A stretch of DNA of 64,000 nt from Candidatus Saccharibacteria bacterium UBA5150 (GCA_002413795.1 DHXS01000009.1:7820-71819), one strand, 5' to 3'; shown: positions 3,887 to 18,025, counted from the first letter of the stretch. A program made the numbers and translations. Notes: generated by a model from the sequence alone, not told the origin.

Positions 3887-4186
3887 AATGGTGCCGGGGC
3901 GACAAATCCGCTCATAATTATTAGACTATTGGAGCGCTTGCCGCCCAACGGCGAGACTGACCGCTCTATCGGCTTTTAGGGCCAAACAGAGCGCCATACG
4001 GATTAACTCCGTTGTAAGTCTGCCCCCGCGAGGGCTACGTGAGGCTAAATTGTACGAACCTTTTTGTTTTTGGACTTACAGATTTATGCTAGCATGACGG
4101 GCTCAAAATGTCAATCTGCTTATGCTTCCCGGACGCGGCCTCAAAAGTTATGCACAGGTTTATGAAAAAATTAAGCATAATTGTTA

Positions 4187-4215
4187 TTGACGGCCTTAAT
4201 TCGATTCTATAAGAT
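4187..4215 (+). promoter_or_regulatory. Sigma70-like promoter candidate
   Basis: TTGACG (4187-4192), a 17-nt spacer, then TAAGAT (4210-4215). Confidence 0.4.
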
Positions 4216-4220
4216 AACAA

Positions 4221-4390
4221 TAGCACTTGAACAAATTAAGTGCTCAAAAACAAAAAGACCCCTGGAGACAACAATTTCTCGCAAGTTGTTGTCTCCACCA
4301 AAAAAGAACAAACCCCAAAACCTTAAAAGCCAAACAAAAACATTAAATAATCGTTAAAACACCTTGTCTTTCCCGGGACAAGGTGTTTTA
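4221..4390 (+). ncRNA. Candidate small RNA or structured comM leader (class unknown)
   Basis: Three perfect hairpins: 4222-4244 (7 bp), 4264-4296 (11 bp) and 4356-4389 (13 bp, 3' arm ending in TTTT). They are separated by G-free C/A-rich linkers. There is no ORF. Confidence 0.3.
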
Positions 4391-4440
4391 CTTTGTCTTG
4401 AAAAGAGCGCGGTGGGCCGCAAATGGAGGTTTAAAGGCCT

Positions 4441-5976
4441 ATGGGTGCCAGCGTGCAGAGTATTATCAGTAACGGCAGTGACGGAACTATAGTTGATATC
4501 GAATGTCACCTCTCAAATAACCTACCAAACATCATAATTGTTGGTTTTGCTAACAAGGCTGTCGATGAAGCCCGCGAACGTATCAGGGGTGCATTCGCAA
4601 CTAGCCTAATAATGCTACCTCGCAAAAGGGTCATTATTAACCTGGCGCCGGCCGACATCCCCAAAGCCGACAGCGGCTTCGATCTGGCCATCGCCGTAGC
4701 CATCTTACTGGCCAACGGCCAGCTGAGCGGCTTGCCCAGGGGTAAACAGGCTTTTATCGGCGAATTAGGCTTAGATGGCACTACTAGAGCTGTTCGTGGC
4801 ATCATAGGTAAACTGCTGACCGGACGAGCCAACGGCATCAGAACCTTCTATATCCCGGCGACCAATCTGCCGCAAGCCCAATTAGTCCCTAAAGTTACTC
4901 TAGTACCTGTTAAGAACCTCCAGCAACTGTATGGCCACTTAACCCATTTGCTGCCAATCAAACCTGTTAAAACCGGTTCGGGCCGCTACCGCTTGCCTGC
5001 CACCAAAGCTCCTACGGTGAATGTGCACCTGAGCGAGGTGGTTGGCCAGGAGCAAGCCAAGCGAGCCCTCGAAATCGCCGCGGCCGGCGGCCACAATGTC
5101 TTTTTCGGTGGACCTCCGGGCACCGGCAAAAGCATGCTAGCCAAAGCCCTGGCCTCCATTTTGCCGCCCCTTAACGGAGAAGAGATTTTAGAAGTTACTC
5201 ATCTGCACAGCTTGGCCGGCCGCGATTACGAGCATATCGTCACCGAGCGCCCCTTTCGATCACCGCATCACAGCGCCAGCCACGCAGCAGTGTTAGGTGG
5301 CGGCAACAAGCTGCGGCCGGGTGAAATCAGCCTAGCCCACCGCGGGGTACTGTTTTTCGACGAATTACCGGAGTTCAGCCGCGAAACCCTCGAGGCCTTG
5401 CGCCAACCGCTTGAAGATCGCGTTATCAGCATTGCCCGAGTCAAAGAGACAGCCGAATACCCGGCCAATTTCATGCTGGTAGCCACAGCTAACCCCTGTC
5501 CTTGCGGCTATTATGGCACCGACAAGGGCTGTCGCTGCCTGCCATCGGCAATGTTGCGCTATCGTGGCAAGTTATCTGGCCCCATTCTGGACCGCATCGA
5601 TCTCTATACCAGTGTTCATAAAATCGAGCACGACAAACTCCTGGTACAGGCGCTCGACCTCAAGGCCGAAGAAAAGGTAAGGCAGCGGGTTATCCGGGCC
5701 CGCAAACAGCAAGCCAAGCGCTTCAGGCATTCCGGTAAGCTTAACGCCGACATGACTAACGGTGATATCAGGCAGCTTAGTCGTATCAATCCCGAGGCCG
5801 GCGTTCTTCTCAACCGGGCCGCAGTTAAGAGGGGCTTGTCAGCCCGTGGTTATATGAGAACTATAAAAGTTGCCCGTACCATCGCCGACCTCGAAGCCTC
5901 ATTAATAATTACTGTGGCGCACATCAGCGAAGCCCTGGGTTACTGTTCGACTCAAAATTTCTTCTCCAAGCCATGA
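4441..5976 (+). CDS. comM: YifB/ComM family Mg-chelatase-like AAA+ ATPase
   Basis: 511 aa. The N-terminal Lon-like domain, Walker A GGPPGTGKSML and the CPCGYYG..CRC zinc motif are typical of ComM. GGAGG lies upstream. Confidence 0.9.
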   Translation: MGASVQSIISNGSDGTIVDIECHLSNNLPNIIIVGFANKAVDEARERIRGAFATSLIMLPRKRVIINLAPADIPKADSGFDLAIAVAILLANGQLSGLPRGKQAFIGELGLDGTTRAVRGIIGKLLTGRANGIRTFYIPATNLPQAQLVPKVTLVPVKNLQQLYGHLTHLLPIKPVKTGSGRYRLPATKAPTVNVHLSEVVGQEQAKRALEIAAAGGHNVFFGGPPGTGKSMLAKALASILPPLNGEEILEVTHLHSLAGRDYEHIVTERPFRSPHHSASHAAVLGGGNKLRPGEISLAHRGVLFFDELPEFSRETLEALRQPLEDRVISIARVKETAEYPANFMLVATANPCPCGYYGTDKGCRCLPSAMLRYRGKLSGPILDRIDLYTSVHKIEHDKLLVQALDLKAEEKVRQRVIRARKQQAKRFRHSGKLNADMTNGDIRQLSRINPEAGVLLNRAAVKRGLSARGYMRTIKVARTIADLEASLIITVAHISEALGYCSTQNFFSKP

Positions 5977-8511: not shown

Positions 8512-8672
8512 GCTCTCTATCTTAACATGGTCGGCCTTCAGACCTTACGCTTGAACTTAATCACATTATAATAGCTACTCGCAAGTACAAGCGATTCAAC
8601 AATCAGCTTCGTGATCTGCTGGAAATGCCCGAACGTGATAAGCCGGAGCAACCAGTAATGTTATAATTATAG

Positions 8673-8903
8673 GTGTTATTACAAGGGGTTGCAGCATTGA
8701 GTAATAAAAATAACCATTCCGAACTCACTAGGCTTCTGCTAAAAGCTAAGAAGCAGATTGAGGCTGGCGAAAATACTAGCAAGCGCAGTCAAACCGAGCT
8801 GACGAACGTGAAGCTCGACGAACATACGATTATCGGCAAGGATGGTATTCCGGTCAAAGAAACCGACCAGTCATCTGAAGATAAGACCATCGTTGCTGAA
8901 TAA
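8673..8903 (+). CDS. Hypothetical small protein (island)
   Basis: 76-aa ORF with a GTG start. An alternative TTG start near 8698 follows AAGGGG. No motif recognised. Confidence 0.35.
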   Translation: MLLQGVAALSNKNNHSELTRLLLKAKKQIEAGENTSKRSQTELTNVKLDEHTIIGKDGIPVKETDQSSEDKTIVAE

Positions 8904-8941
8904 CTATAAGCCAGACATAGCTTGAACTATAGAAAGAGACT

Positions 8942-9928
8942 ATGGCACAGCATCATTTTGTACCTCAGACGTACCTTAGAGGATTCGCCACAGACGACGA
9001 CAGTGAGCGTGTTTACTTTTATGATCGACGGATTGCCAACAAGGGTGTTACAAAGCGTCTGATTCAGGACGTGTGCAGCCAGAACAACCTGTATCGTCTA
9101 CTCATGGACGATGGTAAATATAAAGACGACTTGGAGCAAGATTTTGCCACAATAGCCGAACCGACATTTAAGGAAATAGTAGTTAAGCTCCTGGACTGTG
9201 AGCCACTATCACCAGAAGAAAAGAGTGAGTTTGCAGCATATATTAGTCTACAGATAATTAGAACTCCTGCTTCAAGGGAAATGTATAACGCTATGTCTAC
9301 AGAAATCATGAACAGAGCCGCAAACAAACAGTGGGAGAAATTGCTTGATGACCAGGAAAGACAAAGAGTTATGAGTGAGGTGAAAGAAGAAACAGGCTTT
9401 GATACCGGTGTACTGACGAAGGAGGATATTCAAGGCATTATTGATGGCACGAAGTTTAAGACTACGTGGACAATTCCGAAGGAGAACTGGCTCAAGCATA
9501 CGATGGAAACTATGGGTATGATTTTCAGAGCCTTTGAGAGAATGCACTGGCGAGTGTATTTCGCTGCTCCTGGCACGGCTTTCATTACGTCTGATAATCC
9601 AGTATCAGTGCTTGTACCAAAGCCCGATGGATTTTATGTTGGTTCAGGCTTTCTGAACAGAGGTTCGATACGCTTCTTTCCGCTTGCGAAAAACGCCTGT
9701 TTAACGATTACTGATAACGAACCGTCTGGCTTCAGCTTTGCTGATGCTAACAAGCGTCGAGTTCAGCAGATAAATAATGTTACCGCATTGTCGCACCATA
9801 AGATTATAATTAGTCATAGCCCACAGCTACTTGCTCGATGGGTGAAGCGGATTCCTGACGGCTTCAGTCTTACCGAAGCGGTTAAGGATTACCAAGCCCA
9901 AGACATACTCATGGGTAAGTACGATTGA
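8942..9928 (+). CDS. DUF4238-family protein
   Basis: The N-terminus MAQHHFVPQTYLRGF matches the characteristic H-(F/Y)-V-P-Q-x-Y-L-R-x-F start of DUF4238. 328 aa. Confidence 0.7.
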   Translation: MAQHHFVPQTYLRGFATDDDSERVYFYDRRIANKGVTKRLIQDVCSQNNLYRLLMDDGKYKDDLEQDFATIAEPTFKEIVVKLLDCEPLSPEEKSEFAAYISLQIIRTPASREMYNAMSTEIMNRAANKQWEKLLDDQERQRVMSEVKEETGFDTGVLTKEDIQGIIDGTKFKTTWTIPKENWLKHTMETMGMIFRAFERMHWRVYFAAPGTAFITSDNPVSVLVPKPDGFYVGSGFLNRGSIRFFPLAKNACLTITDNEPSGFSFADANKRRVQQINNVTALSHHKIIISHSPQLLARWVKRIPDGFSLTEAVKDYQAQDILMGKYD

Positions 9929-10074
9929 ACAGGTGTTCAGGAAATGTATAGGGTTTTGCTAGTCAATCCCCTAATGATTTAGATTTAAGCAAGTCTGTAA
10001 AGGGTCTAGCGAGGGTAAACGAGGGCGATGGAGATAAGAATAAGGGGTGGAGTGCAAACTGGGGTGGACTACTG

Positions 10075-10584
10075 ATGAAAAGTTCTAGCATAATGCTTGT
10101 CACTGAAGTGCCGGAGATTGATCTGTTTGAGTGCCTGAAATACGACCAAATGCGGAACTTAGGTCAGCTACGAACGTACTTACCGCATCCGTATAAAGGT
10201 TACGTATACATACAGCTTTGCCGGTCAAGAGTACGCTACGGTTGGCGTATCTGGTTTCAAGCTCCCTGCTGTCAACGGCGAACGACCAAGCTGTACATTT
10301 ACGGCACTCGCATTGCTTGCCGACAATGCCTAGACCTGAAATACCCAAGCCAGTACCGAAAAGATGCATTTGGTAGGTCAGGTATGACCCACCGCAAGCT
10401 AGTTCGCTTACAGAAACAAAAACGCCGATTAGGATATGGCGACTACCCGACACGATTCGGGGTTCAGTATAAAAAGCTCATGAACGAGAGTGAGATACAG
10501 ACCATTGAGACGTTTAGCCTTTTACAGCAGAAGCGTATGAAGTTGGATTTCGAACTGGCACGTACCGAACTTGCCGACGGTTAG
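10075..10584 (+). CDS. Hypothetical protein with a putative CxxC..CxxC zinc ribbon
   Basis: 169 aa with PCCQRRTTKLYIYGTRIACRQCLDLKY. Basic and low-GC. Confidence 0.5.
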   Translation: MKSSSIMLVTEVPEIDLFECLKYDQMRNLGQLRTYLPHPYKGYVYIQLCRSRVRYGWRIWFQAPCCQRRTTKLYIYGTRIACRQCLDLKYPSQYRKDAFGRSGMTHRKLVRLQKQKRRLGYGDYPTRFGVQYKKLMNESEIQTIETFSLLQQKRMKLDFELARTELADG

Positions 10585-10699
10585 TTTATTACGTGTTCAC
10601 GAAGCTGTTAAACGTCTCCAGAGGCTTAAACCACTATTCATACCTCTGCACTGATAAAACGCAGTACAGAGAAAATATAGAGTGATAACGAAAAAACAG

Positions 10700-11695
10700 C
10701 TAGGCATTCTTCTTGTGTTTCTTGCCTCGCTTTTTAGCAGGGTCTAATTTGAAGCTGAATGAGCTTTCGCTAACAGTATCAGGTTGAAACGGACTGTCAT
10801 TATTTTTGATAATCTTCAGCAGGTCAAGTTGATCGAATAGCTTCATTTCGTACTCGCCATTACTGTATCGCCAGTTACCGATACCGACGATTTGTTCGAG
10901 CATTGGCGTAAGTATATGAACGAACGCCCATTTCTGTTCCCAGCGAGTGAAAGTGTAGTTTCGTTGCAGTTGCTTGTAGCCAGCGTGGTCTTTATCGCTA
11001 ACGTAGCTCAGAAACACTAGAGCGTCGTCTTTATCGACTTTCATGATCTCACCGAGGCTGAAACCGAACTCGTCGCTGAACATTGCCAGCCCATGCTTGT
11101 AGCTGTTATAGGCATAGCTTTTGAGTAAATCACGCCCGAAGTAATCGAGGAAGACTGATAGATTATCTAGGCTCTTGTCCCAGACCTTTTTTGGCACAGT
11201 CTTTGGCTTATCAGTACGGCTGTAGAAAATCAAGCTCAGGCCAGTCTTGTGATCCACCGTGAAGTATTCCTGTTTGGTAAATGATTCGACGTCGGCCTTA
11301 AACTCCGAAAAGTTGTTGTTAATCGTTAGTTCGACCCAGGGGCAGTCTTTCGCTCGAACGTGAGCGAACATTATGCGGAATAGAGTCTCGATAGCATGAA
11401 AGTACGTTGTGGCGATCTCAGCCTTGAGGTTCTGTTCCAGTTTGTCTGATAGCAATTTAGCATCTTGCTCATCGTCGATTTTGACTCGTAATCGCTTAAA
11501 CGATACGCCCTGCTTGAGAATGTCTGTTGTAGATTTAGGATTGCCAAGCAATGCTAGAAGGTAAAAGCACTTCTGCAAAAAGTATTGAGTGTCGAATGAA
11601 ACGTAAAACTGCTTATTCAGTTTTGCGATTTCGGCAGATACTTTAGGGTCTTGCTTTGTCATTGCTTCAGTTGGCATTTGGTATGATTTTACCAT
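10700..11695 (-). CDS. Hypothetical protein (island cargo, unknown family)
   Basis: 331-aa ORF with a Lys-rich C-terminus, divergent from the 11739 gene. No recognisable motif. Confidence 0.6.
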   Translation of the reverse strand: MVKSYQMPTEAMTKQDPKVSAEIAKLNKQFYVSFDTQYFLQKCFYLLALLGNPKSTTDILKQGVSFKRLRVKIDDEQDAKLLSDKLEQNLKAEIATTYFHAIETLFRIMFAHVRAKDCPWVELTINNNFSEFKADVESFTKQEYFTVDHKTGLSLIFYSRTDKPKTVPKKVWDKSLDNLSVFLDYFGRDLLKSYAYNSYKHGLAMFSDEFGFSLGEIMKVDKDDALVFLSYVSDKDHAGYKQLQRNYTFTRWEQKWAFVHILTPMLEQIVGIGNWRYSNGEYEMKLFDQLDLLKIIKNNDSPFQPDTVSESSFSFKLDPAKKRGKKHKKNA

Positions 11696-11738
11696 TTTTG
11701 ACTTGCCAAAATAAACGACTTATGCTATGATAGCAAAC

Positions 11739-12818
11739 ATGACAGAACAACTACGCCCACAAGAAACCCAAGTATCACCAGAGCAAGTATTACAAGCTGG
11801 TTCTGAGTTCCTACAGCACTTCGGTGTTGAAGTAAGTCCTACTGAGCAACCAGACCAATTTATGGAAGCTATGAAGCAGTTAGACCCTCGTTATGAAGGT
11901 GGTCGTGAGTTGGTTCGCTATGAACTAGCTGAAGACCAGCGTGAATGGCCCGAAGAAACTAAGCAAGTAATTATGAACGGTGCTGAAAGCATGGGAATGC
12001 TGAAGCCCGAAACCCCTCTAGTTGGTGATATTGATGTTGTTATCGCTCTTGGTGGAGCTAACCAGCAAAACCACGAACGCCCTCGTTATGCACTTGAGGC
12101 TATGAAAAAGGGCGAAGCCACATTTAAGCAGTTAGTAATTGCTGGCTCAAGCCGTAAATTAAAAGAAGGCGAACAAAAGAATACTGCAAATTATGCTCCT
12201 GGTGCTGAAACTGAGTTTGACCTTTGTGTCGCTGGCGCAGCCATGCTTGCAAAGGAATATCCAGGTGTTCCAATTAGCGTATTGTTCGTAGATGATGAAA
12301 AAGCTGGCACACCTGACGTTATTGAGGGTGTCTTAGCAGCCGAACAAGCTAACGGTACTCTACAGCCAAACAGTCGTGTTGCTGCGATAACTACTCAAAT
12401 CTACCAAGAATCAACAGAACTTGACCTTGCACGTGTATCAAACAAGTTTGGTATTGCTGAGACTCAAACTGCTGGCATTCCTTCACCTGCTAAAACCATT
12501 GAGGGTCGTACCCCTGCTACTTATAAGAGCGAGATTATACGAACTCTTAAAGCTGCTGCCAATGGAGCAGTAGCTGAAAAAGTTGCAAAAGTTGCTCATG
12601 CTGAAAAAGTCGGTCAAATTGCTACAGCTACGGCGGCTAATCGTGCAGAACAGATAAAAATTGCCAATGCAAATAACGCTAATAACTCAGATATGCTACT
12701 TGATGAGAACGGAGTAGACCAGTGGGGATTTACTCTTGAGGATCATGAAGCTGGAAGATATCGTAGTGGTGGTCTTGTCTACAATGGCTGGAATGACCCA
12801 GGAATGTACGACGAGTAG
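11739..12818 (+). CDS. Hypothetical protein, weak DUF218/YdcF-ElyC-like core
   Basis: The stretch DVVIALGGANQQN..RPRYALEAMKKG..LVIAGSS..AETEFDLCVAGAAMLAKEYPGVP resembles the DUF218 pattern. The track start at 11727 lies inside the -10 element (CTTATGCTATGAT), so ATG 11739 is preferred. Confidence 0.55.
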   Translation: MTEQLRPQETQVSPEQVLQAGSEFLQHFGVEVSPTEQPDQFMEAMKQLDPRYEGGRELVRYELAEDQREWPEETKQVIMNGAESMGMLKPETPLVGDIDVVIALGGANQQNHERPRYALEAMKKGEATFKQLVIAGSSRKLKEGEQKNTANYAPGAETEFDLCVAGAAMLAKEYPGVPISVLFVDDEKAGTPDVIEGVLAAEQANGTLQPNSRVAAITTQIYQESTELDLARVSNKFGIAETQTAGIPSPAKTIEGRTPATYKSEIIRTLKAAANGAVAEKVAKVAHAEKVGQIATATAANRAEQIKIANANNANNSDMLLDENGVDQWGFTLEDHEAGRYRSGGLVYNGWNDPGMYDE

Positions 12819-12909
12819 ATATCCCACAGTGTCCTGTTAGTAAGATGTGTAATATAGTACTGTTTTAACCGATTATTAGTGCTAGTTAAGATGCAAGGAG
12901 ATATAAGTT

Positions 12910-13182
12910 ATGAGCGGAGAAGGCCAACCAAGATTTGATATTGAAGCTGAACGAGCAAGGTATGAAGCTGTGCCAGAGTTTCAAGAACTACAGGCACAAG
13001 TTCCTGACGCTTTAGAAATGGTTACTTCAACTCGTGGTGAAGAAGGTTTACGAGGTCAAGAACTTGCTGATTATTGGGACAATATAGGCAAAGATTCGGG
13101 TGGTTTTTATGATGACATTAGAGAGAATGGCTGCTCAAGCTGTGGCTCTCACACACCTGGCTGTTGCGACGGTTGCGCATAA
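12910..13182 (+). CDS. Small acidic protein with a C-terminal Cys cluster
   Basis: 90 aa. AGGAGA lies upstream. It ends in NGCSSCGSHTPGCCDGCA (6 Cys in the last 16 residues). Confidence 0.5.
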   Translation: MSGEGQPRFDIEAERARYEAVPEFQELQAQVPDALEMVTSTRGEEGLRGQELADYWDNIGKDSGGFYDDIRENGCSSCGSHTPGCCDGCA

Positions 13183-13214
13183 GCTAGTTACATCATCAAT
13201 AAACTAGGCTTATA

Positions 13215-14075
13215 ATGTCTGAAGTGTCTAAAACGCCAGAAAACTCTTACAACCAATTCTTTGAAGAAGCCCTATATCAACCTGTGCCTGACATGGGTGA
13301 ACTACGAGAGCGTAAAAAGGGGTATAACGAGCTGTCTATTGATACGATTAACCCCTTGTTCACTGAGCCTGTCGTTGATATTGCCGACTATGACATCGCT
13401 GGGCAAGCCTACTATTCACGATCTAACGCCACAACAGAAGAGACTGTACTTGGTGTGCCGACTAGCTTATATCTTCGCAAGTCAATAGCTGAGACGTTGG
13501 CTAAGATAAACGCCTCTTTGCAAAATCCTGCTGTTGCGAAGTTCTTTGATGGAGAGGTTGAGCTTTACGTTGAGGATGCTCTGCGACCTGTATCACTGCA
13601 AACACGTCTCCACGATGAGCTTATACCAACACTCCTGCATAAAAATCACCCCGAAATGAGCGATGACGAGATTGCCGATCGTATCAAGGATATTATCGCC
13701 GTACCTTCAACTGACCTGAAAAAGCCTTCACCGCACTCGACTGGCGGTGCTTTGGATATAATCTTGAGGTACAGACAGCCCTTGCCTGGCTATGTTGACG
13801 GAGTTAGTATATCCGTTGGACACGTTGACGGTGAAACCAGTACGAGGATAAATCCTGATTACTTTGAGCAACATGAGCCACAATCTGATGAAGACAAGCT
13901 GGCTCAACGCAACCGCCGTGCTTATTATGCGATTATGACTGGTGCTGCATTTGGTACTGAGACAGGTTTAGTAAATAACCCGACCGAGTGGTGGCATTGG
14001 GGTAGAGGCGACCAGCTTTCCGCAAAGGTACACGGCGATTATACAGCTTACTACTCTCTAGTAGAACCGTCCTGA
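13215..14075 (+). CDS. VanX/DdpX-type D-alanyl-D-alanine dipeptidase (peptidase M15D)
   Basis: SPHSTGGALD matches SxHxxGxAxD, and EWWHW is also present. 286 aa. Confidence 0.8.
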   Translation: MSEVSKTPENSYNQFFEEALYQPVPDMGELRERKKGYNELSIDTINPLFTEPVVDIADYDIAGQAYYSRSNATTEETVLGVPTSLYLRKSIAETLAKINASLQNPAVAKFFDGEVELYVEDALRPVSLQTRLHDELIPTLLHKNHPEMSDDEIADRIKDIIAVPSTDLKKPSPHSTGGALDIILRYRQPLPGYVDGVSISVGHVDGETSTRINPDYFEQHEPQSDEDKLAQRNRRAYYAIMTGAAFGTETGLVNNPTEWWHWGRGDQLSAKVHGDYTAYYSLVEPS

Positions 14076-14263
14076 CCTACCGTCCAGCTTTATCACTAGT
14101 GTACTTGTACTTGTTATCAGGTAGAGCTGGCAAGAAAACGGAATCAAAAGCAGTAGAAGCCTGATACGCACATTTTATTAACCGCTAAAATTAGTTCAGC
14201 TTGCCGATCATATTGTAGTTAGTTATTGTGGTAAAAAACTTTTGTTTACCCATGTTAAAAACA

Positions 14264-14291
14264 TTGACATCAGTGTGGTCAAAGTTACAAT
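14264..14291 (+). promoter_or_regulatory. Near-consensus sigma70 promoter
   Basis: TTGACA (14264-14269), a 16-nt spacer, TACAAT (14286-14291). AGGAGG (14315-14320) precedes GTG 14326. Confidence 0.5.
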
Positions 14292-14325
14292 AATACATAC
14301 ACACACTAAATAGCAGGAGGCAACC

Positions 14326-15282
14326 GTGCAGCAAAAAATGTTAAAAAATGAGGTAAAGGCTCTAGTGCCATTTTCACCGTCATTGTTAAAGTCAGCAATT
14401 CAGAAGTCAGTACGGAGAGGCGACGTAGACAAGGCAGTCAGGACAGCCAAGAGTCTTATCCAATTAAACGAAGTCGATGCGTTGCGTAGGCTCATGATAA
14501 TCCCAGTGGAAGACTGTATATTGCCACCGGATTACGATAAATACGCAGCCATGCTTACTAAGGTTAGCGCAAAAGGCAGCCAGCCATTGACTGAAGATGA
14601 AAAGACTTCGGCACTTTCAATAATTGGAGACGTAGCCTGGTGTGAATGGCGTGACCTGGATGTTGGCAATCTGGATGATGAGGGCAAAGATTACGCTATG
14701 CAACCAGTTCAAGGCAATAAAGAGAACGATCTGGTAAACGCCCTGCTCTACAGGGCTAGAGCTGGTGGCTCTCGGTGGGATGTGCCAATGTTAAATCAGA
14801 TGGCTAGAGTGTGGAACAAACGGTTCGCTGAAAAGAGTTGGGATATTGAAAAAATGAAGTCGTATTTTACTGGCAAAGTCATCAACTGGAACGATGTTCC
14901 TTACGCAACCGTAGACGACATCATGCTTGAAGCGGTAGATTTTCACTGCAGTGGCATACTGTACACTCTTTTGAAGATAGATTGGATAAAAGACCTATTG
15001 AGAAAAGAGATACCGTTTAATAAAAGGAATTGGTTAGGCTCTGATATGAGCTACGTTAATCTGTTAGAACAGATAATGTGGACTACCAGATCGAGCATCA
15101 ATTACAAGAAAAATATATGGGAAACTCAGGTTGGCAAAGACCAGCCGGTTAGTTGGCTGTGGGCTGATAACGTACCGGAAGCAATGTGGCCGGTGTATGA
15201 GCATATAACAGAGGCGATACGTGAAGAAACAGATAACATCAGTCGATGGATTATTCGCACACAAGGTGAAAAGGTGTTATGA
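14326..15282 (+). CDS. Hypothetical protein; the N-terminus weakly resembles the MgsA/RarA C-terminal helical domain
   Basis: 318 aa. SLLKSAIQKSVRRGDVDKAVRTAKSLI..ALRRLMIIPVEDCILP resembles the RarA lid region. Its stop overlaps the integrase start (ATGA). Confidence 0.6.
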   Translation: MQQKMLKNEVKALVPFSPSLLKSAIQKSVRRGDVDKAVRTAKSLIQLNEVDALRRLMIIPVEDCILPPDYDKYAAMLTKVSAKGSQPLTEDEKTSALSIIGDVAWCEWRDLDVGNLDDEGKDYAMQPVQGNKENDLVNALLYRARAGGSRWDVPMLNQMARVWNKRFAEKSWDIEKMKSYFTGKVINWNDVPYATVDDIMLEAVDFHCSGILYTLLKIDWIKDLLRKEIPFNKRNWLGSDMSYVNLLEQIMWTTRSSINYKKNIWETQVGKDQPVSWLWADNVPEAMWPVYEHITEAIREETDNISRWIIRTQGEKVL

Positions 15283-16169
15283 CCACTGACTTAGTGTCGA
15301 TGCCAAAACGCAACGTAGATGACATCATCGGTGCGTTAGATGTCAGCCAGAACACCAGGGATGAATACAAGAACCGAATCAAGCCATTCCTGGCGTTCGT
15401 GCAAGCCGAAGGTTTGTCGCTGAACGTGCTACTGGAATACAAACGAACTCTGAGCGCTCGTGAGGATTATAGCGTGTCTACTCGCAACAAATACCTGGCA
15501 ACAGCTAGGGTGTTTATGAAAGAATGCTATTGCCTCGGCATTGTGGATCGTGATGTAACGTCAAATGTACGGAGCTTCAAGCAAGACCGGCAACATAAGG
15601 TCACCGGCCTGACTAATGAGGAGGTGTTGCTAATCTGTGTGTGGCTTCGTCAGAACCCTGAAAAGCTGCGTGAACGTGCATTACTCTGTCTACTGCTGTT
15701 CCAGGGGCTGAGACAGGCCGAAATCTGCAATATAAGGCTCAGGGACGTTGATCTGAAAGAAGGTACAATGTTTATACTCGGTAAGGGTCGGGATGACTAT
15801 GAACGAGTACATCTGCACCCGAACACCACTAGAGCGTTGAGACGCTTTTGCCGAAGCCTCAAGTTACAATCCGGTGATTACTTGTTCACTAGCAAACGAA
15901 GGCAAAGCAAAGCCGTGAAGCTCACTACCAGAGGTTTGCAAGGTATTGTTAAGGGGGTTTTTGAGGAATTAGGTATTGACCGAACCGTTCATGGTTGCCG
16001 TCATTTCCATGCCTCAAAGCTCATACAAGCTATGCCAGGCGAATTATCAGTGGTTGCCCGATTTACTAGGCATAGAAGCCTCGAAACTCTCAGAATATAC
16101 GATGATAACCGGCTAATGCTAAGGGACGTTGAACACTACCGGAGAGCCTTCAGTGATCTCAAAATATAG
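15279..16169 (+). CDS. Tyrosine recombinase / phage-type integrase
   Basis: The catalytic pattern is present: GLRQAE (R), HGCRHFHAS (HxxR), RHRSLETLRIYDD (H..Y). Confidence 0.85.
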   Translation: MTTDLVSMPKRNVDDIIGALDVSQNTRDEYKNRIKPFLAFVQAEGLSLNVLLEYKRTLSAREDYSVSTRNKYLATARVFMKECYCLGIVDRDVTSNVRSFKQDRQHKVTGLTNEEVLLICVWLRQNPEKLRERALLCLLLFQGLRQAEICNIRLRDVDLKEGTMFILGKGRDDYERVHLHPNTTRALRRFCRSLKLQSGDYLFTSKRRQSKAVKLTTRGLQGIVKGVFEELGIDRTVHGCRHFHASKLIQAMPGELSVVARFTRHRSLETLRIYDDNRLMLRDVEHYRRAFSDLKI

Positions 16170-16264
16170 CCACTTATTTCGCATAATACTCATTACACGA
16201 AATAACCTGAATCTTTTTACCAGCACTGTTTTACAGCTATAATTAAGGTAATTGGAGGCAACCA

Positions 16265-17971
16265 GTGGACGACGGCAACAAAGCTAAAGATTATATTATT
16301 CAGACTATTCGGGACATGATAGGTGAAGACCAGGATGAAATCGCCTTCTCGGAACTTAAATACGTGCTGTACGCTCGTAAATCTACAACCGGCAAGAATA
16401 AGAAGAACCGTGAACGCCAAGAACAGTCGATTCCTTCACAGATTAAAGCCTGTAAAGAAGCTGCTATGCGTGACCCAAAAATCCATATTGCAAAGATCAT
16501 CATCGAGAAACGCTCTGCCAAAGAGCCTGGCATCAGGAAAAAGTTCAACAAAATTATCGACCAGATTAAAGTTGGCACTTATGATGGCATAATTACGTAC
16601 GCCCCTGATCGTCTCGCCAGAAACATGAAGGAAGGAGGTGAAATTATAGATATGCTCGACCGGCGTGAGATTAAAGACCTCAGGTTCGCCACATACAGTT
16701 TCGAGAACACTCCGATGGGTAAGATGCTACTTGGCGTGTCATTCGTATTGTCTAAGCAGTATTCCGACCATCTGAGCGTTGTGGTAAAGCGTGGCAACAA
16801 AGATGCAATAGAGGTAGCCAACTTTATCGGTAAGTTTAAGCATGGGTACTACAAGAATAAGGATGGCCGGCTTTATCCTGACATGACTAACGGTAATTGG
16901 GAGCTTATAAAAAACGTGTTCGATATGCGTCTGAATGATAACGCAACAGGTACTGAGCTGGCTAAGTACCTGAACAGGAACGGTTATGAAATCCACCGAG
17001 CTGATGGGAGACATAAGTACATATTTACCGACAAACGTGTGTCAGAGATGCTGCGTGACCCATTTTACGCCGGTATTCTGGTTTACGGTTCTCAGATCAT
17101 AGATTTGCAGGAGGTTTACGATTTCACGCCCATAATTGAGCCTGACGATTTTCTGAAGATCAATAAGGCTGACAGTTTCCTAAACACTAACTTCCGATTG
17201 GCTCGGAAAGCTCTAACACCGGTGGGAGTTAGTGCTAACATGATGAACGGCATGATTATCTGTAACGACTGTAAAGAGCCGATGTCTGCCGGTATAATGA
17301 AGAAGTACCAGGGTTCTGGCGACAGTAAAAGGCTCATCGAACTTCGACTGTTGTACCGTTGCGATACAGAAGACTGCAGGTTCTTTAACAAGTCGTGCCG
17401 AGCCAAGTATGTTACTGACTTCATTTATGATTTTCTGGACAAGCACAAGTTTACCAGCAGAGAGGAATATGAGCATTACCTGGAAGATATGACCGAGGAA
17501 GTCGAGCGCAAGACAGCAGATATTACGCAGGAAATAAGATCGCTCATACGCCAGCGAACTGAAAAAGATAAAGATTACAAAAATACCAAAGCTCTGCTTA
17601 GAGAGGAGCCGGAGGAAGCTAAGCACTTTAAGGACGACTTGGATGAGCTGAAGGCAGACCTAAAGTCTATTAACGATGATATTGATACTAACGAGAAGCT
17701 GAAAGTCGAGCTGAGCGATACAAAGCTCAATTATGAGGAATATCTTGAACTTTTTGGAAAAGTGACCGATCTACTCAAGAAAACTTACTATATTGATGAC
17801 AAGGATGCGATTATCCGAAAGTTCTACTTGAACTTCACGGTTCAGGGCGAAATGCAGCCGAGCGGAAAGCAAGTAAAACAGTGGTCAGTAGTCGATTATG
17901 AGCTTGCTGAACCATTCGCTACATTCGTAAAAACCCATAATTCCCTGTCTGGTCGGGGTGACAGGACTTGA
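16265..17971 (+). CDS. Large serine recombinase
   Basis: YARKSTTGK and DRLARN match the resolvase domain. A recombinase domain, a Cys-rich zinc ribbon (CNDCKE..CDTEDC) and a coiled coil follow. The stop TGA 17969-17971 lies inside tRNA-Pro. Confidence 0.9.
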   Translation: MDDGNKAKDYIIQTIRDMIGEDQDEIAFSELKYVLYARKSTTGKNKKNRERQEQSIPSQIKACKEAAMRDPKIHIAKIIIEKRSAKEPGIRKKFNKIIDQIKVGTYDGIITYAPDRLARNMKEGGEIIDMLDRREIKDLRFATYSFENTPMGKMLLGVSFVLSKQYSDHLSVVVKRGNKDAIEVANFIGKFKHGYYKNKDGRLYPDMTNGNWELIKNVFDMRLNDNATGTELAKYLNRNGYEIHRADGRHKYIFTDKRVSEMLRDPFYAGILVYGSQIIDLQEVYDFTPIIEPDDFLKINKADSFLNTNFRLARKALTPVGVSANMMNGMIICNDCKEPMSAGIMKKYQGSGDSKRLIELRLLYRCDTEDCRFFNKSCRAKYVTDFIYDFLDKHKFTSREEYEHYLEDMTEEVERKTADITQEIRSLIRQRTEKDKDYKNTKALLREEPEEAKHFKDDLDELKADLKSINDDIDTNEKLKVELSDTKLNYEEYLELFGKVTDLLKKTYYIDDKDAIIRKFYLNFTVQGEMQPSGKQVKQWSVVDYELAEPFATFVKTHNSLSGRGDRT

Positions 17972-18025
17972 ACCTGCGACCTCACGGCCCCCAGCCGTAC
18001 GCGCTACCAACTGCGCCACACCCCG
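17950..18025 (-). tRNA. tRNA-Pro (anticodon GGG), CCA encoded
   Basis: The reverse complement folds as a cloverleaf: acceptor CGGGGTG/CACCCCG, anticodon loop CTGGGGG, T-loop TTCAAGT. 76 nt. Confidence 0.9.

What the first reader, a model, noticed from the sequence alone, without database searches (positions are those of the whole stretch)
11719..14075. A mobile-element-borne cell-wall module: DUF218/YdcF-like protein, Cys-rich miniprotein and VanX-type D-Ala-D-Ala dipeptidase
Seen: three co-directional island genes. ORF 13215-14075 has the exact VanX/DdpX zinc-site pattern SxHxxGxAxD (SPHSTGGALD) plus EWWHW. ORF 11739-12818 has a DUF218-like core (VVIALGG..RPRYA..IAGSS..ETEF). A 90-aa acidic ORF lies between them. 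From established knowledge: VanX-family enzymes hydrolyse D-Ala-D-Ala, with roles in vancomycin-resistance logic or in use of cell-wall dipeptide. ElyC/YdcF DUF218 proteins are linked to envelope and peptidoglycan precursor metabolism. Inference: the island may carry a peptidoglycan-precursor remodelling or scavenging function. That would matter for an organism that depends on, or attacks, a host cell wall. No vanH/vanA partners are present.
Basis: partly seen in the sequence, partly recalled or inferred. Interest (0 to 1): 0.6.

Follow-up and report, generated by a model that had tools for sequence, protein, structure and literature searches.

The report
Mobile VanX-like dipeptidase with YdcF-like partner
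A small mobile island in a Saccharimonadia (candidate phyla radiation) genome carries an intact VanX-type D-Ala-D-Ala dipeptidase gene that is consistently coupled, and in one genus fused, to a divergent cytoplasmic relative of the cell-wall-linked DUF218/YdcF family, which points to an undescribed peptidoglycan-precursor module of unknown chemistry.

Summary
The three genes are real and lie on a low-GC island at tRNA-Pro(GGG) in a 696-kb Saccharimonadia genome.

**M15 peptidase (13215-14075).** It passes Pfam Peptidase_M15. The Zn ligands, the catalytic Glu and the Arg are invariant. Its AlphaFold model hits VanX first (E 1e-8). It is the most divergent of three M15 genes in the genome.

**ORF1 (11739-12818).** It has no direct Pfam hit. 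Three indirect lines agree on a distant YdcF/DUF218 (Upr-like) relative of the Rv3785_N superfamily:
- 15 of 121 relatives hit DUF218 below threshold.
- hhalign gives P 5e-5.
- YdcF/DUF218 are the best fold matches in two libraries.

Only the Thr of the catalytic Thr-His-Arg-Glu tetrad reported for Upr enzymes aligns.

**Coupling.** ORF1-like genes sit directly upstream of the M15 gene in 13 independent loci and are fused to it in four genomes.

**Miniprotein (90 aa).** It is under strong purifying selection (pN/pS 0.06) and has an invariant Cys-rich tail. It accompanies only some pairs. Elsewhere it precedes possible, unproven ORF1-like proteins, in two loci with a VanY-type peptidase downstream, and once an unrelated protein plus an LdcA-type peptidase.

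**Best reading.** A cytoplasmic, mobile module acting on D-Ala-D-Ala-ending peptidoglycan precursors. The chemistry is inferred.

The parts
11698..11731 (+). Promoter-like site directly upstream of ORF1 (TTGCCA, 17-nt spacer, TATGAT with upstream TG). It would give a leaderless or nearly leaderless transcript if ATG 11739 is the start.
   Evidence: Consensus scan. This is a pattern match only.
11739..12818 (+). ORF1, 359 aa (363 aa if read from ATG 11727). A soluble acidic protein with an N-terminal helical domain, a YdcF/DUF218-like Rossmann-type core (Rv3785_N superfamily), a long helix and a small optional C-terminal beta tail.
   Evidence: AF2 model, pLDDT 92.3. (YdcF/DUF218 fold hits). 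(15 of 121 relatives weakly hit DUF218). (hhalign P 5e-5). (relatives carry PF27209 Rv3785_N). (no transmembrane segment).
12910..13182 (+). A 90-aa acidic miniprotein with the conserved C-terminal tail W..IG..GGFYD.IR..GCSSCGSHTPGCCDGCA. It is a probable metal-binding partner protein.
   Evidence: 17 clusters, with C75, C78, G, F66 and R71 invariant and C85, C86 and C89 at least 90% conserved; pN/pS 0.06 at pS about 0.6. There is no match in Pfam, NCBIfam, PHROGs, PADLOC or PDB sequences.
13215..14075 (+). A VanX-type Zn D-Ala-D-Ala dipeptidase-like M15 peptidase of a 'long' subfamily, 286 aa. Arg124, His174, Asp181, Glu258 and His261 are invariant.
   Evidence: PF01427, 33.6 bits against cut-off 27. 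(invariant columns). (AF2 model, pLDDT 92.9). (VanX 1r44: E 1e-8, TM 0.67 on the target). (hhalign to the genome's other M15 proteins).
8550..17971 (.). Low-GC integrative island that carries the module. It lies between the PCD-RNase H gene and tRNA-Pro(GGG). The left boundary is approximate.
   Evidence: GC profile. ORFs. No att direct repeat was found. The same tRNA-Pro site carries ORF1, with or without M15, in two other genomes.
15279..16169 (+). Tyrosine recombinase of the island.
   Evidence: PF00589, E 1e-22.
16265..17971 (+). Large serine recombinase of the island. Its 3' end overlaps the tRNA.
   Evidence: PF00239 and PF07508. Coordinates.
17950..18025 (-). tRNA-Pro(GGG), the integration hot spot.
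   Evidence: ARAGORN. The same tRNA flanks the module in L003 and L004.

Best explanation
The three genes form an accessory operon of Saccharimonadia that moves on small integrative elements. All three products are soluble and acidic, with no signal peptide or membrane segment, so they most likely act in the cytoplasm.

Shown:
- The last gene encodes an intact VanX-type zinc peptidase.
- The first gene encodes a divergent YdcF/DUF218-like protein of the Rv3785_N superfamily.
- The two are functionally linked. They are adjacent, often translationally coupled, and fused into one polypeptide in one genus.

Inferred:
- The peptidase cleaves D-Ala-D-Ala, or the D-Ala-D-Ala end of a precursor.
- ORF1 uses the sugar-diphosphate/peptide-stem cavity described for DUF218 (Upr) enzymes to bind, or to hydrolyse by a modified mechanism, a cytoplasmic D-Ala-D-Ala-bearing precursor such as UDP-MurNAc-pentapeptide, lipid I/II or a recycled MurNAc-peptide.
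- Together the pair would lower or recycle the pool of D-Ala-D-Ala-ended peptidoglycan precursors.
- The Cys-rich miniprotein is an optional metal-binding partner or regulator of the ORF1-type protein.

The pay-off for a cell living on antibiotic-producing actinomycetes could be D-Ala salvage. It could also be tolerance to D-Ala-D-Ala-binding glycopeptides, with cross-linking taken over by the genome's two L,D-transpeptidases.
For: M15 peptidase:
- Pfam hit over threshold.
- Arg124, His174, Asp181, Glu258 and His261 are invariant in 31 homologues.
- VanX is the top structural match (E 1e-8) ahead of LdcB and VanY.
- The motifs align to the genome's canonical DdpX.

ORF1:
- Confident AF2 model.
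- YdcF 3ca8 matches with probability 1.00 and TM 0.44 on the target.
- A YdcF-family protein is the top hit in BFVD (TM 0.58), with two further DUF218 hits.
- DUF218 is the only Pfam family hit repeatedly by relatives: 15 of 121, with no other family above 2.
- hhalign against true DUF218 proteins of related genomes gives probability 67% and P 5e-5, in register over GG, Arg, SG, Glu and Thr.

Coupling:
- ORF1-like lies directly upstream of M15 in the window, L001, L004, L010-L013, L015-L017, L014/L116, L115 and L124. Gaps are 0-170 nt or the genes overlap.
- The two are fused in L018, G172, G189 and G227 as uninterrupted 644-705-aa frames.
- In 201 class-level genomes, 13 have ORF1-like, 10 have the long M15 and 7 have both (0.65 expected by chance). 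All 7 are adjacent or fused, across 5 genera.
- At least 30 ORF1 and M15 clusters share the same longest contig.

Theme:
- Distant miniproteins precede possible ORF1-like proteins. A VanY-type M15_4 peptidase follows in two loci (L105, L118) but not in a third (L120).
- In L106 a miniprotein precedes an unrelated 277-aa protein plus an S66 LdcA-type peptidase.
- All of these peptidases release D-Ala from peptide stems, by established knowledge of the families.

DUF218 biochemistry: C55-PP-MurNAc-peptide hydrolysis with the peptide stem held in the cavity (bioRxiv 10.64898/2026.10.14.759067).

Cytoplasmic location: no hydrophobic segment.

The genome has two YkuD L,D-transpeptidases.
Against: - No activity has been measured.
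- ORF1 gives no direct Pfam hit. Its profile does not reach any PDB sequence.
- In the hhalign register the catalytic His of Upr enzymes is Tyr226 and the Arg is Ser229. Upr-type hydrolysis is therefore doubtful. E. coli YdcF, the closest fold, has no known substrate.
- The long M15 subfamily is a stand-alone gene without a conserved neighbour in 66 alphaproteobacterial loci. It also occurs without ORF1 in three Saccharimonadia genomes.
- ORF1-like genes occur without M15 in six genomes.
- The genome already has a canonical DdpX next to Ddl, so the need for a further dipeptidase is unclear.
- The miniprotein is absent from most pairs.
Confidence: 0.45

Rival explanations
1. Conflict or abortive-infection module. 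On a trigger such as phage infection, the dipeptidase depletes D-Ala-D-Ala and stops wall synthesis. The ORF1-like protein would act as sensor or second effector, and the miniprotein as regulator or inhibitor.
For: - The module sits on mobile elements and at an integration hot spot.
- It lies next to a DUF4238 gene that matches the PADLOC candidate 'DUF4238-Pers'.
- In L010 it lies next to a reverse transcriptase.
- Its distribution is sporadic: 13 of 201 genomes.
- ORF1-like domains are fused to a STAND-like P-loop NTPase in the N-terminal effector position (P0276, 1404 aa), to AAA_33, to BTAD and to an alpha/beta hydrolase.
- One relative is followed by nothing but is preceded by a 967-aa TPR protein.
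Against: - None of the three proteins matches any PADLOC model.
- No relatives were found in IMG/VR viral contigs.
- Several loci are chromosomal and have a divergent TrmB-type regulator, which is typical of metabolic operons.
- The long M15 subfamily looks like a housekeeping gene in Alphaproteobacteria.
Confidence: 0.15
2. RiPP-like or peptide-cofactor pathway. The miniprotein would be a precursor whose invariant Cys/Ser/Thr-rich C-terminal core is modified by the ORF1-type enzyme and trimmed by the neighbouring peptidase.
For: - The miniprotein has a variable N-terminal part and an invariant 30-residue C-terminal core.
- It is under strong purifying selection.
- It is always found next to an uncharacterised 280-490-aa protein: ORF1 type A, or in three loci the possibly ORF1-like X336 family. 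A peptidase of one of three different families is usually also nearby.
Against: - Most ORF1-M15 pairs, and all the fusions, lack any miniprotein.
- No known RiPP maturase, radical-SAM enzyme, cyclodehydratase or exporter is nearby.
- D-Ala-specific peptidase families are not known as leader peptidases.
- A Cys5-His tail in a cytoplasmic acidic protein is more simply explained as a metal site.
Confidence: 0.08
3. Ordinary nutritional DdpX-like dipeptidase with unrelated hitch-hiking neighbours. The enzyme would simply feed on imported D-Ala-D-Ala, and ORF1 and the miniprotein would have independent functions.
For: - The M15 protein alone is sufficient for DdpX-type chemistry.
- The subfamily occurs alone in Alphaproteobacteria and in some Saccharimonadia.
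- No dipeptide transporter is needed if substrate comes from the cell's own turnover.
Against: - ORF1 and M15 are adjacent in 13 loci and fused in four genomes.
- Start and stop codons overlap or nearly abut in L004, L015, L017 and L124.
- No Ddp-type ABC transporter is in the island.
- The NCBIfam DdpX equivalog scores only 22.7 bits against a cut-off of 176.
Confidence: 0.12

Closest known systems
VanX (Enterococcus faecium, PDB 1R44) and E. coli DdpX, Peptidase_M15 PF01427
   Same: It has the same fold; VanX is the top Foldseek hit (E 1e-8, TM 0.67 on the target). It has the same SxHxxGxAxD and ExxH zinc and catalytic motifs and the same conserved Arg. It lacks a signal peptide, as VanX and DdpX do.
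   Different: It is about 85-110 residues longer, with an N-terminal extension and a helical insertion at 126-160. No PDB sequence is reached even with a profile. It fails the NCBIfam DdpX equivalog (22.7 bits against 176). There is no vanH/vanA and no ddp transporter context. Instead it is coupled or fused to a YdcF-like protein.
DUF218 / Upr-like family (UprA=SanA, UprB, UprC; cytoplasmic YdcF, PDB 3CA8)
   Same: It has a Rossmann-type core with the collinear motifs GG, Arg, S-G, Glu, Thr and V-T. YdcF/DUF218 are the best fold matches in PDB and BFVD. Like YdcF, it is cytoplasmic and lacks part of the periplasmic family's catalytic set (paper read).
   Different: It has no Pfam DUF218 hit. 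The catalytic His aligns with Tyr226 and the Arg with Ser229. It has an extra N-terminal helical domain, a long C-terminal helix and an optional beta tail. It has further invariant residues of its own: Arg143, Glu149 and the YAP.A motif.
Rv3785_N (PF27209), N-terminal domain of Mycobacterium tuberculosis Rv3785 in the arabinogalactan gene cluster
   Same: Proteins carrying PF27209 are the nearest annotated relatives of ORF1 (E 7e-11 to 8e-8, 28-37% identity). They align over the whole core and share Arg118, Glu149, Glu163 and Gly250. The cell-envelope gene context of Rv3785 is as described in PMC9318467.
   Different: The function of Rv3785 is unknown. ORF1 type A is a separate branch confined to Saccharimonadia/Patescibacteria MAGs. 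The model itself is not in the local Pfam copy, so membership could not be scored.
VanY / VanXY and cytoplasmic D,D-carboxypeptidase plus L,D-transpeptidase bypass of glycopeptide action
   Same: The logic matches: removal of D-Ala-D-Ala termini from cytoplasmic precursors. A sister module has a VanY-type M15_4 peptidase in place of the VanX-type one. The genome has two YkuD L,D-transpeptidases.
   Different: There is no evidence of pentapeptidase activity, no two-component VanRS regulator, and no D-Lac or D-Ser ligase in the island. Resistance is a hypothesis only.

Membership tests
Peptidase_M15 (VanX/DdpX, PF01427) | Pfam profile score above the gathering threshold | tested here: met
   33.6 bits against a cut-off of 27, E 4.3e-8. 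The genome-wide scan gives 31.6 bits.
Peptidase_M15 (VanX/DdpX, PF01427) | Zinc ligands His-Asp-His in SxHxxGxAxD and ExxH | tested here: met
   His174, Asp181 and His261 are invariant in 31 homologues. They align to SNHPKGLAVD and EWWHF of the genome's canonical DdpX.
Peptidase_M15 (VanX/DdpX, PF01427) | Catalytic Glu (ExxH) and transition-state Arg | tested here: met
   Glu258 and Arg124 (in ALRP) are invariant. The equivalence of Arg124 to VanX Arg71 rests on motif position (recalled knowledge) and not on a structural superposition.
Peptidase_M15 (VanX/DdpX, PF01427) | VanX fold | tested here: met
   AF2 model with pLDDT 92.9. Foldseek to 1r44_A gives E 1e-8, probability 1.00, TM 0.50 on the query and 0.67 on the target.
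Peptidase_M15 (VanX/DdpX, PF01427) | Hydrolysis of D-Ala-D-Ala, with dipeptide-only specificity | not testable with these tools
   This needs an enzyme assay.
E. coli DdpX orthologue group (NCBIfam NF007557) | Equivalog score above the cut-off | tested here: not met
   22.7 bits against a cut-off of 176.
DUF218 / Upr-like (PF02698) | Pfam profile score above the gathering threshold | tested here: not met
   ORF1 gives no hit at E <= 10. The genome's true DUF218 gene scores 91.8 bits.
DUF218 / Upr-like (PF02698) | Remote homology at profile level | tested here: inconclusive
   15 of 121 superfamily members hit DUF218 below threshold (best E 2e-4), and no other family exceeds 2 members. hhalign gives probability 67% and P 5.3e-5 over 112 columns. 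With the narrow profile the result is only probability 2% and P 0.023.
DUF218 / Upr-like (PF02698) | YdcF-type Rossmann-like fold | tested here: met
   PDB 3ca8_A: probability 1.00, TM 0.44 on the target, rmsd 5.5. In BFVD the top hit is a YdcF-family protein (TM 0.58, rmsd 4.3), with two further DUF218 proteins. The scores are modest and cover only the core.
DUF218 / Upr-like (PF02698) | Catalytic Thr-His-Arg-Glu tetrad (UprA T125, H149, R152, E182; bioRxiv 10.64898/2026.10.14.759067) | tested here: not met
   In the hhalign register the Thr is kept (Thr195), the His aligns with Tyr226 and the Arg with Ser229. The Glu position lies outside the aligned stretch.
DUF218 / Upr-like (PF02698) | Periplasmic or membrane-anchored location of the characterised Upr enzymes | tested here: not met
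   There is no signal peptide and no hydrophobic segment (maximum Kyte-Doolittle 19-residue mean 1.12). This resembles cytoplasmic YdcF.
Rv3785_N (PF27209) | Match to the Pfam model | not testable with these tools
   The model is absent from the local Pfam copy. Proteins that carry it (P0109-P0113) match ORF1 at E 7e-11 to 8e-8 and align across the core.
Van-type glycopeptide resistance cluster | vanH (D-lactate dehydrogenase) and vanA/B (D-Ala-D-Lac ligase) beside vanX | tested here: not met
   No such domains occur in any island ORF. The genome's only Ddl found here lies on another contig, next to the canonical DdpX.
RiPP biosynthetic cluster | Precursor peptide together with a recognised maturase | tested here: not met
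   There is a candidate precursor-like miniprotein, but no maturase family in the island or in related loci.
Integrative mobile element | Recombinase, tRNA-side insertion, deviant composition, and variable presence at the same site | tested here: met
   The same tRNA-Pro(GGG) site holds different insertions in L003 and L004. Related Ser-recombinase elements carry the module in L001, L016 and L010. att repeats were not found.

The most novel reading that the evidence does not exclude
ORF1-type proteins, and by extension YdcF and Rv3785, would be the cytoplasmic counterparts of the periplasmic Upr release factors. They would bind or cleave nucleotide- or lipid-linked MurNAc-pentapeptide from the inside. 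Together with a tethered VanX-like peptidase they would form a mobile 'precursor-dismantling' switch. That switch would either give glycopeptide tolerance to epibionts living on antibiotic-producing actinomycetes or arrest wall synthesis on demand. The Cys-rich miniprotein would be its metal- or redox-controlled governor.
Probability: 0.15. Interest if true: 0.75.

Novelty: new variant of a known kind. Interest (0 to 1): 0.5.

Why it matters
DUF218 has only just been given a biochemical function: release of C55-PP-linked glycans, including lipid II (October 2026 preprint). Its cytoplasmic members (YdcF, Rv3785-like) remain unexplained.

A conserved gene pair, confirmed by natural fusions, ties one such cytoplasmic branch to a D-Ala-D-Ala peptidase. 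This gives a concrete, testable substrate hypothesis: D-Ala-D-Ala-bearing peptidoglycan precursors.

It also shows that ultra-small Saccharimonadia, which depend on actinomycete hosts, exchange a cell-wall-precursor module on integrative elements. That bears on how they cope with host-made cell-wall antibiotics or salvage D-amino acids.

If the module is only a nutritional dipeptidase with neighbours, it is of minor interest.

Tried and rejected
- Direct family scans of ORF1 and the miniprotein against Pfam, NCBIfam, PHROGs and PADLOC gave nothing.
- PDB sequence searches with the single M15 protein and with profiles A1, A2 and A4 gave no meaningful hit.
- The whole-chain Foldseek search of ORF1 was dominated by weak SRP54/FtsY, PEP carboxylase and Csm6 hits with TM below 0.3 and rmsd above 12. 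I judge these to be generic Rossmann or helical matches.
- hhalign of the narrow ORF1 profile against DUF218 was not significant. It became suggestive only with the 121-member profile.
- The 277-aa protein beside the distant miniprotein in L106 is not related to ORF1. The 336-aa family (L105, L118, L120) is only a possible remote relative (P 0.002-0.004).
- No att direct repeat was found for the island.
- No conserved neighbour was found for the alphaproteobacterial long M15 genes.
- No relatives were found in IMG/VR viral contigs, and no ORF1 relative on PLSDB plasmids. One viral scan failed because alignment A3 lacked a conserved stretch.
- The metagenome scan for the miniprotein added one locus only.
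- I rejected a secreted, host-wall-attacking role because all three proteins lack export signals.
Full report
**Setting**

The window belongs to a 696-kb, 25-contig genome whose close protein relatives are almost all from Candidatus Saccharimonadales/Saccharimonadia MAGs. The region from about 8.55 to 17.97 kb has 44-47% GC, against about 55% in the flanks.

The island ends with a tyrosine recombinase (15279-16169) and a large serine recombinase (16265-17971). The 3' end of the serine recombinase overlaps tRNA-Pro(GGG) at 17950-18025. I found no att repeat.

Two other genomes carry different insertions at the same site, between the S2P/M50 protease with tRNA-Pro(GGG) and the PCD-RNase H fusion gene:
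- L004 has an rve transposase, ORF1 and M15.
- L003 has ORF1 alone.

This site is therefore a hot spot, and the module is mobile cargo.

**The observation**

The three co-directional ORFs are present.

Homologues of ORF1 start at MxEQ. A promoter-like TTGCCA-17-TATGAT ends at 11731. Residue numbers below follow the 363-aa reading from 11727; subtract 4 for the 11739 start.

None of the three proteins has a hydrophobic segment or signal peptide, and all are acidic. I take them to be cytoplasmic.

**The peptidase**

ORF 13215-14075 passes the Pfam gathering threshold for Peptidase_M15 (33.6 bits against 27). It fails the NCBIfam DdpX equivalog by a wide margin (22.7 bits against 176).

In an alignment of 31 homologues at 49-75% identity, these residues are invariant:
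- Arg124 (in ALRP)
- His174 and Asp181 (in SPHSTGGALD)
- Glu258 and His261 (in EWWHW)

The AF2 model is confident (pLDDT 92.9). Its best PDB match by far is VanX 1R44 (E 1e-8, TM 0.67 on the target), ahead of LdcB, VanY and VanXYg. Sequence searches never reach a PDB entry. It is therefore a divergent 'long' subfamily, with an N-terminal extension and a helical insertion.

The same genome has two further M15 genes:
- a canonical 173-aa DdpX directly next to Ddl (95 bits);
- a 229-aa form (53 bits) that is the island protein's nearest paralogue (hhalign probability 98%).

Full-length relatives at 30-36% identity are common in Alphaproteobacteria. There they have no conserved neighbour.

**ORF1**

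ORF1 has no direct family match. It has 113 relatives in the 90%-clustered database, nearly all unnamed proteins of Saccharimonadales or Patescibacteria MAGs. The most distant ones carry PF27209. That model is named Rv3785_N, after an uncharacterised protein in the mycobacterial arabinogalactan cluster (PMC9318467).

A profile search of 1.84 billion representatives finds 1857 members.

The AF2 model (pLDDT 92.3) shows four parts:
- an N-terminal helical domain;
- a five-stranded Rossmann-type core;
- a 54-residue helix;
- a small beta tail that many homologues lack.

Three independent lines connect the core to DUF218/YdcF:
- E. coli YdcF (3CA8) matches with probability 1.00 and the best TM and rmsd among sizeable alignments in the PDB. 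In BFVD the top hit is a YdcF-family protein (TM 0.58, rmsd 4.3), with two more DUF218 proteins in the list.
- When 121 superfamily members are scanned one by one, DUF218 is the only Pfam family hit repeatedly. It is hit by 15 members, best E 2e-4, all below threshold. No other family is hit by more than 2.
- hhalign of the 121-member profile against 13 bona fide DUF218 proteins from related genomes gives probability 67% and P 5e-5 over 112 columns.

This is remote homology, not family membership.

A preprint of October 2026 reports that DUF218 proteins (renamed Upr-like) hydrolyse the phosphoacetal bond of C55-PP-linked glycans, including lipid I and II. They use a Thr-His-Arg-Glu cluster, and the peptide stem sits in the cavity. 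It also reports that cytoplasmic YdcF lacks several of these residues and has no known substrate.

In the hhalign register ORF1 keeps the Thr (Thr195). It has the nearly invariant Tyr226 in place of the His and Ser229 in place of the Arg. Its own invariant set is Arg118, Arg143, Glu149, Glu163, the YAP.A motif and Glu269.

**The miniprotein**

The 90-aa ORF has 17 homologous clusters. The N-terminal two-thirds vary. The last 35 residues, W..IG..GGFYD.IR..GCSSCGSHTPGCCDGCA, are almost invariant, including five Cys.

Between three loci, pS is 0.55-0.62 while pN is 0.035-0.045, so pN/pS is about 0.06. It is therefore a real, constrained protein. It matches nothing known.

**Linkage**

ORF1-like genes lie directly upstream of the long M15 gene in the window, L001/L002, L004, L010, L011, L012, L013, L015, L016, L017, L014/L116, L115 and L124. 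Many have gaps of 0-12 nt or overlapping codons.

In L018 and in G172, G189 and G227 (one genus) the two are a single uninterrupted 644-705-aa frame. The ORF1-like domain is N-terminal and the M15 domain C-terminal.

Counts in an even sample of 201 class-level genomes:

| Gene content | Genomes |
|---|---|
| ORF1-like | 13 |
| Long M15 | 10 |
| Both | 7 (0.65 expected if independent) |
| Both, adjacent or fused | 7 (in 5 genera) |
| ORF1-like only | 6 |
| Long M15 only | 3 |

These genomes are related to one another, so the counts are not independent.

At least 30 ORF1 clusters share their longest contig with an M15 cluster.

The miniprotein accompanies only the window, L001/L002 and L016 among the loci in hand. 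More distant miniproteins sit in other arrangements:
- L105 and L118: upstream of a 315-344-aa family, then a VanY-type M15_4 peptidase.
- L120: the same family without a peptidase.
- L106: upstream of an unrelated 277-aa protein and an S66 LdcA-type carboxypeptidase.

The 315-344-aa family shows an ORF1-like motif order, including ..VTSSTY.., but only weak profile similarity (P 0.002-0.004).

There are two context classes:
- Mobile: a family of about 6-kb Ser-recombinase elements (L001, L016, L010), the window's island, and rve-flanked copies (L004, L013). L122 holds the long M15 alone between Ser-recombinase genes related to the window's.
- Chromosomal: loci with a divergent TrmB-type regulator (L014, L017, L105, L113-L115, L120).

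**Mechanism**

What is shown:
- an intact VanX-type enzyme;
- a YdcF-like partner;
- strong genomic coupling, including fusion;
- mobility;
- likely cytoplasmic location.

What is inferred:
- The pair works on one substrate stream.
- Given the only known chemistry of each fold, the most economical candidate is D-Ala-D-Ala or D-Ala-D-Ala-ended peptidoglycan precursors: UDP-MurNAc-pentapeptide, lipid I/II at the inner face, or recycled MurNAc-peptides.
- The swap of the neighbouring peptidase between three families (VanX-type, VanY-type, LdcA-type), all of which release D-Ala from stem peptides, fits that theme.

The outcome could be D-Ala salvage, or reduction of glycopeptide targets with cross-linking by the two YkuD enzymes. 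I cannot tell which. Because ORF1 lacks the Upr His and Arg, it may bind rather than cleave, or it may use Tyr226 and its own Arg/Glu set.

Rivals are a conflict or abortive module, a RiPP-like pathway centred on the miniprotein, and a plain nutritional dipeptidase with unrelated neighbours. They are weighed in their own sections.

**Novelty**

The peptidase is already annotated as an M15 or D-Ala-D-Ala dipeptidase in public MAGs. Its partner is 'hypothetical' everywhere.

The held literature contains no paper that mentions both Saccharibacteria and D-Ala-D-Ala dipeptidase. I found no description of the pair, the fusion or the miniprotein.

I rate it a new variant of known kinds. Interest is moderate because it offers a substrate hypothesis for the unexplained cytoplasmic branch of the DUF218/Upr superfamily.

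**Limits**

- No complex prediction was possible.
- The DUF218 link rests on sub-threshold statistics that agree with one another but are individually weak.

Noticed in passing
L006 (own genome, contig C15) 1480-2001 (-) and 2006-3172 (-): The genome's canonical 173-aa DdpX/VanX-type dipeptidase (95 bits) lies 4 nt downstream of a 388-aa D-Ala-D-Ala ligase-like gene. This ligase-dipeptidase pairing recalls vanA-vanX. I did not examine whether the ligase makes a dipeptide or a depsipeptide.
   Followed up: no
L007 (own genome, contig C5) 1447-2136 (-) and 2133-2942 (-): A third M15 gene (229 aa) is the nearest paralogue of the island enzyme. It overlaps the stop of a 269-aa gene whose motifs (FCGNATR, ACSSGT) look like a DapF-type epimerase or racemase.
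   Followed up: partly
L018 8816-10840 (+); L117 4753-6693 (-): Natural fusion proteins of 674 and 646 aa, with an ORF1-like domain followed by the long M15 domain. They are conserved in at least three genomes of one Saccharimonadia genus.
   Followed up: yes
L115 6297-6515 (+): A different 72-aa ORF with a Cys-rich C-terminus (..CEGSYCKFEGEGGWSICSYSCQDDVYD) lies upstream of an ORF1-like/M15 pair and beside a TrmB-type regulator. It is unrelated in sequence to the window's miniprotein.
   Followed up: no
P0276, P0388, P0387, P0363: ORF1-like domains occur fused to other modules: a STAND-like P-loop NTPase (1404 aa, with the domain N-terminal), AAA_33, a BTAD transcriptional-activator domain and an alpha/beta hydrolase. 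This suggests the domain is also used as a sensor or effector module elsewhere.
   Followed up: partly
window 8942-9928 (+): The island's DUF4238 protein matches the PADLOC candidate defence model DUF4238-Pers (E 2e-13).
   Followed up: partly
L010 10880-11728 (-): A 282-aa reverse transcriptase (RVT_1, E 8e-13) lies immediately downstream of the M15 gene in a Ser-recombinase element related to L001 and L016.
   Followed up: no
window 11739-14075 compared with P0001/P0117: The closest ORF1 relative is 94% identical and the closest miniprotein 90%. No M15 relative exceeds 75%, even on the same 2.6-kb contig that carries the 94% ORF1. The operon therefore looks mosaic.
   Followed up: no
L121 1500-1760 (+) and 2072-2779 (-): One distant miniprotein lies next to a Cu-oxidase_4 (YfiH/PgeF-family) gene on the opposite strand. 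The adjacency may be chance.
   Followed up: no
L113 and L114 (ORF1-like at 4230-5120 and 3998-5005, both -): Further ORF1-like paralogues, without M15, sit between a TrmB-type regulator and genes that look like carotenoid genes (phytoene synthase and desaturase). A second ORF1-like-looking gene lies about 2 kb away in L113.
   Followed up: no
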